This document shows, piece after piece, positions 766 through 19,052 of a stretch of DNA of 64,000 nucleotides. The DNA is from Octopus vulgaris (lineage: Eukaryota). Position 1 is the first letter of the stretch. Every line of letters starts with the position of its first letter. Position numbers and translations under genes: made by a program. The notes beneath the pieces are model-generated. The model was given only the letters and a program-made list of their open reading frames with translations. It was not told the origin of the DNA and did no database searches. Location: positions 113,336,001 to 113,400,000 of the forward strand of contig OX597820.1 of NCBI GenBank assembly GCA_951406725.2. Reading direction: 5' to 3'.

Positions 766-1854
766 ATATGCATGTTCATACATGCATTTAGATTCACATA
801 AAAAGAGCGCATATATTTGTATGTTAATATATATAGACAGATACGCAAAGACAAAGCACAAAAGCATTCACACGCACAAGGATAACGATAAAAGCACTTC
901 GACGCATGCGCTGTTAGCTTTCTCTACAAGACTGCGATCTGCAGGGGGGGAGTAAATAATGTTCATTGAAGCCAGAGTAACGCAACAAATGACGCATATG
1001 AAGCTGGTGTTCTTTAGAATAGCAGTTAATTACTATTATGGTTACTCAGAATTGTTATTCGATACAATAGTTTCAATGTCCTTTCTTCTTCGTGGAAGGG
1101 TAGGTGGGGATAAAATAATGTACCAAAGCGATCTTTTCACTAAATTTGAGACCTTGGGGCTTTACAAGAAGTAGACCATTCTTTTAGAAAGTTCATCTTA
1201 GACAAATACAATACAAAGATATAAATATGCGTGTGTGTGTGTGTGTGTGTCTAGCTACTTATATATATAGGCGCAGGAGTGGGTGTGTGGTAAGTAGCTT
1301 GGTAACCTCTGAACTGTTCGGACGTGTTATTTTGCTGCTCCGGTTGCCACGTTGTTTCAACGTGAATTGTTGAACTTTCGACTCGACTGCAGGTAGGAAT
1401 TTTGTATTTTTGCGAGCGAAGTGAAGCTTTATTACTTGCATTAATGTATTTTAGCATTAAATATTTTTTAGCAGATAATAAGGCTCCATTTTGCTCCGGA
1501 TATAATTTTTCTGCCTGTTGTCGGGTGTGAAGAAAATTGTGTTTTTGAGGCGGCGTAGTCCGTCTACAAAAATTATTTTTGAAATTATCGTTGTGTTATC
1601 TACGGATTTACCAAGGATCATTTACCAAGGTGTCGTACCAACCATATACTTGGCCTGGAGTACAATTTTTGGCCTAAAAAGTGAAAAAATTCCTTTGTCT
1701 GAATTTGAACTCTCTTTCTCTGCCTATCATTCATTTGTAAAAAACTTTCTTTGAACTGCCATTTTAATTTTATTTCTTCCCTTCTGTTGCTTTTTTCATT
1801 CTCCTTTCTGTGTCTAATTTATTTTGTAACATTTTGAACTGTTTTTCTTAAGTT

Positions 1855-3063
1855 ATGGCAAGGAATTTTACAGTGTGGGAATTAACACCTCCCAAAAAAT
1901 ATTTGAACGAACTTAAGGAAAAGACAGTTGTGCTGAGGACATATTCGAAGTCTCTCGACACCATAATGGTCTTTCCGAAAGACACAATTATGAACGAGCT
2001 GGCAGACTATATGCCAGCCGTTAAACACATTCAACGGGGAGCCAAATACGCAACGATTTGGTTGCTGTTTGACTCTCCTAAAGCAGCTTGCGATTTCGCA
2101 AGTAAGCCCATTGAGGGCGACGAGATTCTGTTTCTCCCAAGCTATAAGGGGGAAAAATTGCTACGTTTATGGGTCTGCGGCCTGCCGCCCGGCTTTGAGC
2201 CCGAGTGGGTGGAAGATTCCATCCGCCGGGGTCTGAGTGGTGGTAGCGCCAAGATCCTGAACGTAAGAATGCAGCCTGCGGCTAACTGGGAAGGAGGAAA
2301 AGCTACTTTAACTCTGTGGACCCAGTCGGCCAAGAGTCTGGTTTTGCCGGACTTCCTAAAGATGGCCGGTTCCAAGTATCCGGTGATGCTAGAGGGACGC
2401 GCCCCCAAGTGTCACCTGTGCTCGGAGACCGGCCATATTAAGAAGAGCTGCCCCAGGAACCAGAGTAGGATCCTGGAGAAGTTAATATTAGAGCCTCTCC
2501 CTGCCTCACCAATGGAGGGAGAGAAACAAAGCGAGGAGGGGGAAAAACCCTCCGCCAAAAGAAAAAGAAGAGTGGGAAGCAATGGCGACTCACAAAAGGA
2601 CCCGAAAGCTCCGGGAGAGGAGAACCTGGTGCGCACAGCTCCGGAACCTCAGCCTCCCGTGGCCCAGGGCCAAAAGAAAAGAAAAAAGAAGAGAAACGGA
2701 GCCCCGCCGGCGGATTGCTACACGCAGACGGCGGTTCCCGAGTATCCCGGATCCTCTCAGGCGGGTGTGCTGCCTGAGGGACTATTTGTAGAAAATTTTG
2801 TGCTCCTCTTTTTCAAGGGAAAAAAGGTGGAAGACGCCGTAAGAAAAGTGCGAAAGAGAGGACATTGGGAGGTAATCCGGTCTTGTGTGGAAGGCCCCGA
2901 GTGGCCTTCGCAGTTAGCTGCGGGGGTCGTGGGAAGGGCTGATCTACACAGGATCGTGAGTTCCTGCCCGGCGGACTCTTTCCAGACTGTACCACTGGAC
3001 TCCGGCCTGACCAGCGAGTATTGCCTCAATGAGGCAAGAGCATTGGTCGGCCGGGTCACTTAG
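1855..3063 (+). CDS. 402-aa LINE ORF1/Gag-like nucleic-acid-binding protein (Tx1/L1-type ORF1-like)
   Basis: Intact GC-rich ORF. CX2CX4HX4C knuckle CHLCSETGHIKKSC preceded by EGRAPK and a WVCGLPP motif; basic NLS-like runs (KRKRR, KKRKKKR); colinear paralog at 4051-5268. Confidence 0.85.
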   Translation: MARNFTVWELTPPKKYLNELKEKTVVLRTYSKSLDTIMVFPKDTIMNELADYMPAVKHIQRGAKYATIWLLFDSPKAACDFASKPIEGDEILFLPSYKGEKLLRLWVCGLPPGFEPEWVEDSIRRGLSGGSAKILNVRMQPAANWEGGKATLTLWTQSAKSLVLPDFLKMAGSKYPVMLEGRAPKCHLCSETGHIKKSCPRNQSRILEKLILEPLPASPMEGEKQSEEGEKPSAKRKRRVGSNGDSQKDPKAPGEENLVRTAPEPQPPVAQGQKKRKKKRNGAPPADCYTQTAVPEYPGSSQAGVLPEGLFVENFVLLFFKGKKVEDAVRKVRKRGHWEVIRSCVEGPEWPSQLAAGVVGRADLHRIVSSCPADSFQTVPLDSGLTSEYCLNEARALVGRVT

Positions 3064-3199
3064 GCAATGTAACATCCCTGTAACATATGGAAGAGGAGGT
3101 TCATTGCCTCCTCTAAAACATGTAATGTGAACATTTTGTAATTTTTGGAAATTGTTTGAATTTTTTGAAATTTTTGAACTCTGTAAAACTATTGAAAAA

Positions 3200-3334
3200 A
3201 AAGAACATTGTTTTAGAGAAGCAAAAGTCGGCGGGCGCTTTCTGACTTCTCCCATCACCATCGTCATCCACCACCACCATCATCCATTAATGTCCTTGTC
3301 CAGCCCGCAGCTACTCTGTGCTGCCCTAGTGGCA
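3200..3334 (+). other. Conserved 3' RNA structure (stem-loop, pseudoknot, terminal hairpin) of copy A
   Basis: GAGAAG(3216-21)/CTTCTC(3246-51) stem; loop GCGGGC(3231-36) complementary to GCCCGC(3303-08); TGCC-N5-GGCA hairpin. The same motif recurs at 5404-5550. Confidence 0.65.
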
Positions 3335-4050
3335 AATTATATAAAATAAAGTAGCTTGGTAACCAGACATGCGCAGTTAGTCGGTTGCTTCTTGTTGAGC
3401 TAGAGTGGACGTGAGTCCAACTAAAGAAAAAAGACCAAAAACGGAAAGTTGTCGAGGTAAGTGATTTTGTTTATTGTGAGTTGGGCATAATTTATTGCGT
3501 GCCAATTATTATTTCAGTAGGTTGTGTCCAACTCTGAGACAATTTCGCCTGCGCTAGGCGGCTGCCGTTTTTGTGTTCATTGAAAAAAAAAAAAAAAAGA
3601 AAAAACAGTGGAGGGGCGTATACTCAGGATTCAATACAGTTACTGTTAAAATTACCGTTGGCAGTAACCAGTGCTGTGTTTGAGTTTGCTGAATTTATTC
3701 CCTTGTCAGAGTACTTCGCAAGAAAAGTATAAAAATAAGCCACTATTGGATTACCTTTCGGACCCATTTTTGTGGAGGTTGTGTTGCAGTTGCGGCGTTC
3801 CAGGTTCAACCCAAGCCGGGAGTACCGCAGAATATTTTTGCTGTGTTTTTTCTGTTTATTAACTTTCTTTTGAACTTCATTTACCCCCCCCCCCCTTTTG
3901 TTTTTTCTTTATTGCGACTTTCCGTTAATTTCTTCCCTTCTGTTGTGCTTTCTCCTATTTGTTTTTTCAAAAATCTATCAAATTTATTTAGACTTTGGAA
4001 CTTTTTTCTTCCTGCTTTTGAGTCTAATTTGAATATATTTTTTAAAAAAC

Positions 4051-5268
4051 ATGGCAATGAAAAATAACAAAGTTTTGGAGTGGGAAATCATACCACCCAA
4101 AAAGTGGTTGAAGGACCGTGAAGATAGGACGGTGGTGTTGAGAACCTACTCCAAGGCACTTGACACCATCGCCCTATTCGAAAAGACGGCAATTGAGGAG
4201 GAGTTGGAGGAGTATTTGCCAACAATTAAATTCATTTCCAGGGGTGTCAAATATGGAACGGTGTGGTTGCTGTTTGACACCCCTGAAGAGGCTTGCAAAT
4301 TTGCTAGCGAACCCTTGGAGGGTAAGGAAATCTTATTCCTGCCCACTTACAAAAAAAGAAATTAATGAAAGCTTGGATCTGCGGACTGCCACCCGACATA
4401 GAACCCGAGTGGATAGAGGAGACTATCCGCCGGGGTCTGGGTGACAGCGAAACTAAGCTCCTCAATGTAAAAGTTCTTCCTGCGGCTGCTTGGGTTGGCT
4501 CGAAAGCAGTTTTGACCCTGTGGACCCAATCAGCCAATCTGGTTTTTCCAGATTTTTTGAAAATGGCCGGGTGCAGGTACCCGGTGATGCTTGAGGGTCG
4601 CCCCCCTAAGTGTCATCGGTGCTTGGAGTCCGGCCACATAAAGAAGAACTGTCCTCGGGAACAAAATAGGATCCCGGAACAGTTAAGTAAAACCCCTCTA
4701 GAAGAGGGAACGATAACGGCCGAGAAAGCAGAGGACTCCTCAAGCAGAGGCCGAAAGAGGAAGGTGAGCAACAATGGATGCTCACCAAAGGATAATAGGG
4801 ATGAGGAGAGGAGGGCGAATCTTCCAGCCACGGAGGAGACGCACCCTCCCTCAGTTAAAAAGGGGAAAAAAAAGAAAAACGGGACGTGTGGCACCGGAAT
4901 GTCGCGGAACTACGTCGGTTGGGGTTGTGCCACCGACAAGAGAAGGAATACCGTTGGTGGAAACTGTGCCGCCAACGAAAGAACTGAATGTATTGGTCCT
5001 CTTCTATAGAGGAGGAGAAATTGAAAAAGTGATGGAAGAGCACTACAAGGGAGCACCTTTAGCCTTCACACAGGACCCCGAATGGCCTCCGCAGGTAGCT
5101 GTGGAGGCCGTGGCGTTCGACGTGACGCTAGGGCTAAAGGAGCTCAATGAAGACTATAACTTGGTCCCGGGCGACGCGAACTCGGAACTTGACTACGTTC
5201 TGAGGGAGGCGTGGTTGATGGTGGAGGGCGCGGGCACAAGCTATTTCGAGGACGATATGTATTATTAG
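4051..5268 (+). pseudogene. ORF1-like zinc-knuckle protein (~405 aa when repaired) with two compensating frameshifts in A-runs
   Basis: ORFs 4051-4365, 4365-5009 and 4774-5268 align successively to the 402-aa protein (TVVLRTYSK, LTLWTQSA, PDFLKMAG, CHRCLESGHIKKNC, PEWP). Shifts fall at A7 (4351-4357) and the A-rich run ~4857-4879. Confidence 0.8.
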
Positions 5269-5403
5269 TATGGACTTAAGTCCAAAAATTGAAAAATTGT
5301 AAGAGGATTAATACCTCGTTTTGTATTAATAATGGACTGCTAAGCCCAAAATTGGAAAAATTGTAAGAGGTTTAATACCTCGTTTTGTGTTAATCTTTTT
5401 TAA

Positions 5404-5550
5404 AAAGAACAATGTTTTAGAGAAGCAAAAGTCGGCGGGCGCTTTCTGTCTTCTCCCATCCTTATCATCTTTCTTTCATTATCATTCACCTCATTAATGT
5501 CCTCGTCCAGCCCGCAAAGCTAACTTAATCTGTGTACTGCCTTTATGGCA
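5404..5550 (+). other. Conserved 3' RNA structure of copy B
   Basis: 57-nt block with 2 differences from 3200-3256; GCGGGC(5435-40)/GCCCGC(5510-15); TGCC-TTTAT-GGCA hairpin. Confidence 0.65.
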
Positions 5551-5731
5551 AATGTTTTGAAATAAAGTAGCTTGGTAACCAACCACATGGTTCCAGGTTC
5601 AGTCCTACTACGTGGCACTTTGGGCAAATGTCTTCTTCTATAGCCTCGGACCGACCAAAGCCTTGTGAGTGGATTTGGTAGATGGAAACCGAAAGAAGCC
5701 CGTCGTATATATGTTGTATATGTATATATAA

Positions 5732-6023: not shown

Positions 6024-6222
6024 GGAGTAAACACATAAATGTGAAACAAGGTGGAAAAAAGAGTACTCAAATACCAGAGGTAGAGTAATATGCTTTATTT
6101 AAAAGCAGCAGAAATTCAACAAAACCTGTTACTCGGAGTTTTATTAACAAAACTGCCCGACGAACGGGAACGTGAAACTCCGAGTAACAGGTTTTGTTGA
6201 ATTTCTGCTGCTTTTAAATAAA

Positions 6223-6225
<3 letters not shown>
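6021..6225. mobile_element. Penelope-like pLTR remnant: inverted repeat with minimal hammerhead
   Basis: Arms ~6090-6141/6175-6225; core CCGACGA-ACG..CGT-GAAAC-TCCGA-GTA; (TA)n on both sides. Confidence 0.6.
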
Positions 6226-6272
<47 letters not shown>

Positions 6273-13639: not shown

Positions 13640-18667
<5,028 letters not shown>

Positions 18668-18671
<4 letters not shown>

Positions 18672-19052
18672 CACAGGAGTGGATGTGTGGTAAGTAGCTT
18701 GCTAACCAACCACATGGTTCTGGGTTCAGTCCCACTGCGTGGCATCTTGGGCAAGTGTTTTCTGCTATAGCCCCGGGCTGACCAATGCCTTGTGAGTGGA
18801 TTTGGTAGACGGAAACTGAAAGAAGCCTGTCGTATATATGTATATATGTATGTGTGTATGTATGTGTGTTTGTGCGTGTGTGTGTTTGTCCCCCTAGCAT
18901 TCTTCAAACTTGTGTTTACGTCTTCCCTTACTTATTAAAGAGACCATTAGAATAAGTATTTACAAAGAATAAGTCCCGTTATTTGCTCGACTAAACGGTG
19001 CTCCAGATGGCCGCAGTCAAATGACTGAAACAAGTAAAAGAGTAAAAAGAGT
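18668..19052 (+). mobile_element. SINE family A
   Basis: Full head-to-tail match to the other copies; target-equivalent site reads CTTGCTAACC. Confidence 0.9.

What the first reader, a model, noticed from the sequence alone, without database searches (positions are those of the whole stretch)
3200..5550. Near-invariant 3' RNA pseudoknot plus terminal hairpin shared by the two elements
Seen: the UTRs are otherwise divergent, yet a 57-nt block (3200-3256 vs 5404-5460, 2 differences) and a 25-nt block (3285-3309 vs 5492-5516, 1 difference) are conserved. The spacer between them varies in sequence but stays C/A/T-rich. Block 1 folds as GAGAAG/CTTCTC plus AAAG/CTTT and exposes GCGGGC, which is complementary to GCCCGC in block 2 (an H-type pseudoknot). 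A TGCC-N5-GGCA hairpin with a variable loop precedes AATAAA. Inference: this is the cis-signal recognised by the trans-acting RT, or a 3'-end processing/stabilising RNA element.
Basis: partly seen in the sequence, partly recalled or inferred. Interest (0 to 1): 0.72.

Follow-up and report, generated by a model that had tools for sequence, protein, structure and literature searches.

The report
Passenger-only RNA fold in octopus retroelements
Two half-size octopus jumping genes end in a short hairpin that they share with a full-length partner, likely the handle for its copying enzyme, and just before it carry a separate hairpin with a predicted knot that the sampled partners lack and at whose edge shortened copies tend to begin.

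Summary
The two elements are ORF1-only (HAL1-like) passengers of a Tx1-like LINE. Both types insert at one site of a tRNA-type SINE; the scan has reported this system before on other DNA. The 3' end has two modules. (T) The last ~40 nt hold an anti-target motif, a 4-bp hairpin with compensatory changes and AAATA. A profile of its last part scores 42 of 45 LINE tails, so T is the likely ORF2p signal. (P) Blocks 1 and 2 score in 0 of 45 LINE tails; an exact loop-plus-block-2 pattern occurs 1,157 times in the genome. The P hairpin covaries (4 of 5 inner pairs change on both sides). The pseudoknot stays a prediction: 0 of 6 pairs change on both sides. Of 31 short 5'-truncated copies, 11 begin within 6 nt of the hairpin's 5' foot (null maximum 9 in any 7-nt window), so the hairpin probably forms during retrotransposition. 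P is most likely a protein-bound or nuclease-resistant fold that helps passengers use the LINE's enzyme. Rfam has no significant match, and function is untested.

The parts
1270..1291 (+). 5' part of the interrupted tRNA-type SINE (target, A-box-like side; box label recalled)
   Evidence: empty-site joints 1300/1301 to 5578-5581 in public contigs
1292..1307 (+). 16-bp target duplication, copy 1
   Evidence: (D20)
1308..3348 (+). ORF1-only element 1
1855..3063 (+). Intact ORF1, 402 aa, ZCCHC3-like RNA-binding region plus CCHC knuckle
   Evidence: (zf-CCHC below curated cut-off)
3200..3256 (+). Block 1: irregular hairpin; outer stem 3216-3221/3246-3251, inner stem 3224-3228/3237-3241, loop 3229-3236
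3257..3284 (+). Nearly G-free, CAT/CAC-rich linker (predicted unstructured)
3285..3309 (+). Block 2; GTCCAGCCCG at 3298-3307; 3303-3308 is the predicted pseudoknot partner of 3231-3236
3309..3315 (+). Anti-target motif AGCTACT, complementary to the start of the target duplication
3322..3334 (+). Terminal 4-bp hairpin shared with the autonomous LINE
3349..3364 (+). 16-bp target duplication, copy 2 (overlaps AATAAA 3345-3350)
3365..5564 (+). ORF1-only element 2 (another subfamily); ORF1 4051-5268 lies in three frames
5404..5460 (+). Block 1 of element 2; loop 5433-5440
5492..5516 (+). Block 2 of element 2; GTCCAGCCCG at 5505-5514
5517..5526 (+). Anti-target motif variant AAGCTAACTT
   Evidence: sequence
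5538..5550 (+). Terminal hairpin of element 2
5565..5580 (+). 16-bp target duplication, copy 3
5581..5710 (+). Resumed 3' part of the SINE (continues beyond); GCCCGTCG at 5698-5705 is complementary to the loop

Best explanation
The 3' end of these ORF1-only elements has two modules: a terminal ~40-nt module shared with the autonomous LINE, likely the site that the LINE's ORF2 protein recognises, and an upstream hairpin with a predicted pseudoknot, absent from every LINE tail sampled, which likely forms a compact protein-bound fold that helps the passenger RNA obtain and hold that enzyme in trans. Shown: both element types sit at one SINE position with no poly(A) at the junction; the terminal hairpin and the block-1 hairpin covary; the anti-target motif changes with the target; short truncated copies start at the hairpin's 5' foot. 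Inferred: transcripts read through into the duplicated target, whose bases anneal to the nicked DNA to prime reverse transcription, while the anti-target motif pairs with those bases (in the RNA, or on the displaced DNA strand). Also inferred: module P is the passengers' own acquisition, and RNA eroded from the 5' side down to the edge of this fold is still copied, which produces the hotspot.
For: Partner LINEs (APE, RT, zf-RVT) lie in the same arrays at the same site; 30 of 30 passenger and 30 of 30 LINE ends are joined directly to the target with no A8 run. Census of 70 ends: 37 of 38 with ORF1-only upstream carry loop and/or block 2, against 0 of 13 with ORF2 upstream. Profiles: module P scores >=10 bits in 165 of 165 passenger tails (a set picked by block 2) and 0 of 45 LINE tails; the terminal segment scores in 42 of 45 LINE tails. 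Pair counts on 34 copies: 93.9% of cells paired against 37-54% for slid controls; inner stem 4 of 5 pairs change on both sides, terminal hairpin 2 of 4. Over 13 inner-stem types seen at least twice, 64 of 65 pairs are kept. Divergent families rebuild the stem from other sequence around the same loop. Truncation hotspot: 11 of 31 within -4..+1; 12 of 13 matches of an independent pattern start there too (overlapping set). Anti-target motif against target base: 159 A/T, 6 T/A, 1 A/A, 0 T/T among 166 scorable of 201 copies. Passenger ORF1s form one clade (100/100) apart from LINE-type ORF1s.
Against: No binding or activity was measured. The pseudoknot has 0 of 6 pairs changing on both sides; 11 cells are wobble-retained and 11 broken, and neighbouring unpaired bases are just as invariant, so sequence-specific binding without a knot also fits. 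The hotspot could come from a hairpin in the cDNA, and microhomology opportunity is highest at that spot (4.5 per 7 nt against 0.8-3.6 upstream). The terminal profile includes the junction bases used to pick ends, so 42 of 45 is partly circular. The six T/A copies are probably related and five were hand-picked loci. Only about 45 LINE tails were examined, so an unsampled LINE with module P is not excluded.
Confidence: 0.5

Rival explanations
1. Module P is an exoribonuclease-resistant pseudoknot: it stops 5'-to-3' decay without a protein and leaves a stable ~135-nt 3' RNA that the LINE enzyme still copies.
For: Hotspot at the 5' foot of the hairpin. Loop-to-downstream pairing of -13.3 kcal/mol, with the short first loop and zero second loop expected of H-type knots (recalled). 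Knotted ribozyme folds give cap-like protection in R2 templates (PMC13708176 passage).
Against: The linker is much longer than in viral xrRNAs (recalled). Protecting only the last ~135 nt gives no obvious benefit to a full-length element. No Rfam match.
Confidence: 0.17
2. Module P is a self-cleaving or processing RNA that cuts just 5' of the hairpin.
For: Near-invariant loop and block 2; truncated copies start at the 5' foot, as HDV-like ribozyme products start at their first helix (recalled).
Against: Strand order differs from HDV-like ribozymes (sequence against recalled topology). No Rfam family above its threshold. A cut there would separate ORF1 from the RT signal. Starts spread over about 6 nt, with 4 more at +5/+6.
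Confidence: 0.1
3. The whole pseudoknot is the RT-recognition signal inherited from a LINE.
For: Terminal position; structured 3' UTRs mediate template recognition in R2 (PMC13708176 passage) and in stringent LINEs (PMC3747384 passages).
Against: Absent from all 45 LINE tails held, which come from several subfamilies (ORF2 about 55-92% alike to L042) that use the same site.
Confidence: 0.1
4. The loop pairs not with block 2 but with GCCYGTCG in the SINE (read-through RNA, SINE RNA in trans, or target DNA).
For: An 8-bp duplex (-15.5 against -13.3 kcal/mol) that also uses the two invariant loop bases left unpaired in the knot; both common SINE variants are compatible; the loop variant CGACGGG matches the SINE perfectly.
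Against: Post hoc and short (a few percent by chance, my estimate). It leaves the invariance of block 2 unexplained. Wider antisense homology to the SINE was not significant.
Confidence: 0.06
5. The blocks carry no function and look alike through recent tail exchange.
For: 3' ends and ORF1 types are partly decoupled among copies.
Against: Stems are rebuilt from different sequence while pairing is kept.
Confidence: 0.04

Closest known systems
HAL1 (half-L1), Ag-Sponge, HeT-A: ORF1-present non-autonomous LINEs (PMC5753468 and PMC5786205, passages)
   Same: Encode only ORF1, keep a LINE-like 3' end and depend on an autonomous partner.
   Different: Here they are site-specific, stack in arrays inside a SINE, have ORF1 only about 25-31% identical to the partner's, and carry a structured module that the partner lacks. 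The passages read describe no such module.
Tx1-Mar LINEs with SINEU, and Tx1L in Tx1D (PMC4494074, passages)
   Same: Tx1-type LINE and passengers target another transposon and form tandem insertions around a TSD.
   Different: SINEU are non-coding and end in poly(A); these passengers code for ORF1, have no poly(A) at the junction, and target a tRNA-type SINE.
Stringent-type LINE/SINE 3' stem-loops (eel UnaL2, monocot L1, SART1; PMC3747384 and PMC7265360, passages)
   Same: Shared terminal hairpin with compensatory changes; target-like sequence in the 3' UTR (SART1).
   Different: The motif here is antisense to the target's top strand and covaries with it; SART1's motifs are sense and SART1 needs poly(A).
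R2 (PMC13708176, review passages)
   Same: Target-derived bases at the RNA's ends that help junction formation; structured 3' UTR.
   Different: R2 is autonomous with an RLE endonuclease, and its knotted ribozyme lies at the 5' end.
Viral exoribonuclease-resistant RNAs (recalled; only a search listing seen)
   Same: Hairpin loop paired to a downstream strand, with copies starting at its 5' edge.
   Different: No Rfam match, a long linker, and a cellular retroelement host.

Membership tests
ORF1-present non-autonomous LINE (HAL1-like) | ORF1 only, no ORF2 | tested here: met
ORF1-present non-autonomous LINE (HAL1-like) | Multi-copy, moved by TPRT (TSD, 5' truncations) | tested here: met
ORF1-present non-autonomous LINE (HAL1-like) | ORF1 under purifying selection | tested here: met
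   dN/dS about 0.13-0.17 in 3 of 3 pairs
ORF1-present non-autonomous LINE (HAL1-like) | Mobilised in trans by the partner | not testable with these tools
   Inferred from shared site and tail
Tx1 clade (partner LINE) | Two ORFs; ORF2 with APE endonuclease, RT and zinc finger; L1-group similarity | tested here: met
Tx1 clade (partner LINE) | Target-specific insertion | tested here: met
   30 of 30 ends
Tx1 clade (partner LINE) | RT groups with named Tx1 elements in a tree | not tested
   The homologue search gave 5 unnamed proteins; no named reference was held
Stringent-type 3' stem-loop (module T) | Shared by LINE and passenger, with compensatory changes | tested here: met
Stringent-type 3' stem-loop (module T) | Required for retrotransposition or bound by ORF2p | not testable with these tools
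   Needs an assay
LINE-derived RT signal (module P) | Present at the 3' end of the autonomous LINE | tested here: not met
   0 of 13; 0 of 45
H-type pseudoknot | Stem 1 supported by covariation | tested here: met
H-type pseudoknot | Loop-to-downstream stem supported by covariation | tested here: inconclusive
   0 of 6 pairs change on both sides, 4 of 6 on one side; 94.6% of cells paired
HDV-like or other known self-cleaving ribozyme | Match to an Rfam model or to the family's strand order | tested here: not met
   no match in either 3' region at E<=5; strand order compared with recalled topology
HDV-like or other known self-cleaving ribozyme | Self-cleavage | not testable with these tools
   Needs an in vitro test
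xrRNA | Blocks Xrn1 without protein | not testable with these tools
   Only the genomic truncation hotspot

The most novel reading that the evidence does not exclude
ORF1-only passengers evolved their own knotted RNA fold, absent from the LINE they parasitise, that blocks 5'-to-3' decay or cuts itself at its 5' foot. This would be an xrRNA-like or new ribozyme-like fold in an animal retroelement. It works beside an anti-target motif that tracks the insertion site by base pairing.
Probability: 0.22. Interest if true: 0.8.

Novelty: new variant of a known kind. Interest (0 to 1): 0.5.

Why it matters
How a non-autonomous element wins an enzyme that normally prefers its own RNA is well studied only for Alu and L1 (recalled). 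Here a site-specific LINE and over a thousand passenger copies separate a shared recognition tail from a passenger-only fold, which makes the question testable in a defined system. The anti-target motif that changes with the target hints at RNA-assisted site choice, relevant to targeted insertion tools built on non-LTR retrotransposons.

Tried and rejected
Rfam: nothing significant. ARAGORN: no tRNA gene in the window. Idea that the 3' region is an inverted copy of the SINE: rejected, scores were near shuffles for most of 34 copies (best 3 of 100 shuffles as high). Covariation of the SINE's own CGGGC and GCCYG: not significant (p 0.13). Truncation control in the LINE: only 1 true copy among 2 matches, uninformative. 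Public runs: no RNA holder listed; all laid runs are contigs, which cannot show RNA ends. In one search, contigs of four runs (three coded organisms) covered both blocks and listed no other letter at 5435-5440 or 5505-5515, a weak sign only. Resemblances to twister, hammerhead, HDV and the 7SL Alu domain were considered from memory and dropped. YCAY enrichment in the linker (217 against 178 in dinucleotide shuffles, maximum 194) may only reflect CAT repeats. The last part of script 91 crashed; the terminal-hairpin tally comes. The HAL1 paper (PMC2923044) was not held. Paper searches listed nothing on this RNA module; Repbase is not searched, and the supplement and deposited library of PMC13282606 were not seen and may hold these families.

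Full report
Observation. The two blocks, all named motifs and their coordinates are as stated. Two elements, 1308-3348 and 3365-5564, sit head to tail between three copies of a 16-bp duplication inside a tRNA-type SINE (the tRNA origin is my reading of box-like motifs, and ARAGORN found no tRNA). Element 1 has one intact 402-aa ORF with a CCHC knuckle and a ZCCHC3-like RNA-binding region. Element 2's ORF lies in three frames. The only protein homologue found is named from Octopus sinensis, so the host is an octopus.

The system. The 3' region is multi-copy; an exact loop-plus-block-2 pattern occurs 1,157 times against 1 for the reversed control. Autonomous LINEs with APE, RT and zf-RVT domains lie in the same arrays at the same site, nearest to L1 ORF2p among solved structures. 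I call them Tx1-like from architecture and targeting; no tree with named Tx1 was made. In two sets whose queries ended at the junction, 30 of 30 passenger and 30 of 30 LINE ends join the target directly with no A8 run. Of the first 30 pattern sites, 29 were scored as at the target and the other appears to sit at a decayed variant of it; 25 have ORF1 and none ORF2 upstream. Passenger ORF1s form one clade apart from LINE-type ORF1s (19 of 61 rows kept after thinning) and are under purifying selection. Earlier notes of this scan describe the same system.

Two modules. In a census of 70 ends picked only by the junction pattern (70 of 565 matches), 38 had ORF1-only sequence upstream and 37 of those carry loop and/or block 2; 13 had ORF2 upstream and none does; 19 had no ORF hit. 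A profile of blocks 1-2 gives no hit in 45 LINE tails, while a profile of the terminal segment scores 42 of 45; that is partly circular, because it includes junction bases. The full covariance model gives 163-200 bits on complete, undeleted passenger ends and 28-54 on LINE ends. So the terminal hairpin is shared and blocks 1-2 are not.

Structure. On 34 copies chosen for diversity, RNAalifold recovers the block-1 hairpin with 7 of 13 pairs showing double changes. For the named structure, 93.9% of cells pair against 37-54% for slid controls. Double changes: inner stem 4 of 5 pairs, outer stem 1 of 6, terminal hairpin 2 of 4, pseudoknot 0 of 6. These controls do not remove relatedness. Over 13 inner-stem types seen at least twice, 64 of 65 pairs hold, and divergent families rebuild the stem from unrelated sequence around the same loop (those were found by a pattern that demands the loop). 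The terminal hairpin occurs as TGCC/GGCA, TGTC/GACA and, in LINEs, CGCC/GGCG. The commonest knot variants are wobbles fixed in whole families (38 and 19 of 158 copies), but unpaired neighbours are equally invariant, so the knot remains a prediction. Single copies do not fold better than shuffles.

Truncation hotspot. Three patterns covering about 185 nt gave 4, 21 and 7 short copies joined to the target's 5' half; one is an intact SINE and was dropped. The script placed 13 of 31 starts at -5..+1 of the outer stem. Two of these (L223, L229) are mis-mapped, because their alignments began about 70 nt into the copy, which leaves 11 of 31 within -4..+1. In 20,000 uniform simulations no 7-nt window held more than 9. 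Microhomology opportunity is highest there (4.5 per 7 nt against 0.8-3.6 upstream), which may contribute but looks too small to explain the peak. Reverse transcriptase stalling should leave starts at the 3' side of a stem (recalled), so the peak points to an RNA 5' end at the hairpin foot or to a hairpin in the cDNA. A LINE control was uninformative.

Target pairing. An antisense copy of the duplication's first bases lies 36-43 nt before passenger ends and about 75 nt before LINE ends. It reads AGCTAC where the target has GTAGC and AGCTTC/AGCTTT where it has GAAGC/GAGGC: 159, 6, with 1 discordant, among 166 scorable of 201 copies (the six are probably related). At 5' junctions, variants of the duplication travel with the element rather than the locus: one 5' end carries the same variant at 8 of 8 junctions, and 15 of 25 paired 5' and 3' junctions differ. 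The RNA therefore probably carries target-derived bases at its 5' end, as described for R2 (PMC13708176 passages).

Mechanism. Shown: shared site, shared tail, covarying hairpins, passenger-only module, hotspot. Inferred: read-through RNA anneals to the nicked target and primes copying without poly(A); ORF2p binds the terminal module; module P is a compact, probably protein-bound fold that helps passengers use the enzyme in trans (0.5). Rivals: protein-free nuclease block (0.17), self-cleavage (0.1), signal from an unsampled LINE (0.1), pairing with the SINE (0.06).

Prior knowledge. ORF1-only LINE derivatives (PMC5753468, PMC5786205), transposon-targeting Tx1 with passengers (PMC4494074) and shared stringent stem-loops (PMC3747384, PMC7265360) are known; I read passages of each. 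PMC13282606 (parts 1-2 of 3 read, supplement not seen) lists 13 recently active L1-Tx1 families in an octopus without describing targets or RNA structure. Nine searches and Rfam showed nothing on module P, nor did the scan notes listed (8 shown of 290 and 8 of 63). Verdict: a real, structured, passenger-specific RNA module in a known kind of element; a new variant, with function untested.

Noticed in passing
window 1292-1307, 3349-3364; L037, L056, L183, L207, L040, L050: Variants of the 5' target duplication travel with the element's 5' end, not the locus, suggesting the RNA begins in target-derived bases; in the window all three copies instead share the local variant.
   Followed up: partly
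L247, L253, L254, L256, L181: Several truncated copies have a fold-back copy of the upstream target at their 5' junction, which fits a top-strand nick right after CTTACC.
   Followed up: no
window 3257-3290 and 5456-5497: The linker is rich in YCAY motifs (217 against 178 in dinucleotide shuffles over 34 copies); a KH-domain protein site is a recalled possibility.
   Followed up: partly
L041:5285-5300, L081, L144, L167; window 3455 and 1391: A strong 5' splice-site-like sequence overlaps the LINE ORF2 stop codon, and similar donors lie early in both passengers' 5' UTRs, with pyrimidine tracts before the ATG.
   Followed up: no
L211:5434-5700 (minus): A further LINE family (ORF2 about 60% alike) uses the same site with a different tail; it has a terminal hairpin but no clear anti-target motif.
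   Followed up: partly
L048:420-5600 (minus): A LINE of another family appears nested inside a passenger's ORF1.
   Followed up: no
window 5646-5705: The SINE itself carries CGGGC and GCCYG about 45 nt apart (most copies); covariation is not significant.
   Followed up: yes
G000:C1:223694819-223715190: At least seven near-identical passenger units spaced about 2 kb apart, plus one inverted.
   Followed up: no
window 14000-19000: Several kilobases of nearly pure AT repeat (GC 0 over 15001-17000).
   Followed up: no
window 6088-6228: 54-nt arms, 98% complementary, 33 nt apart.
   Followed up: no
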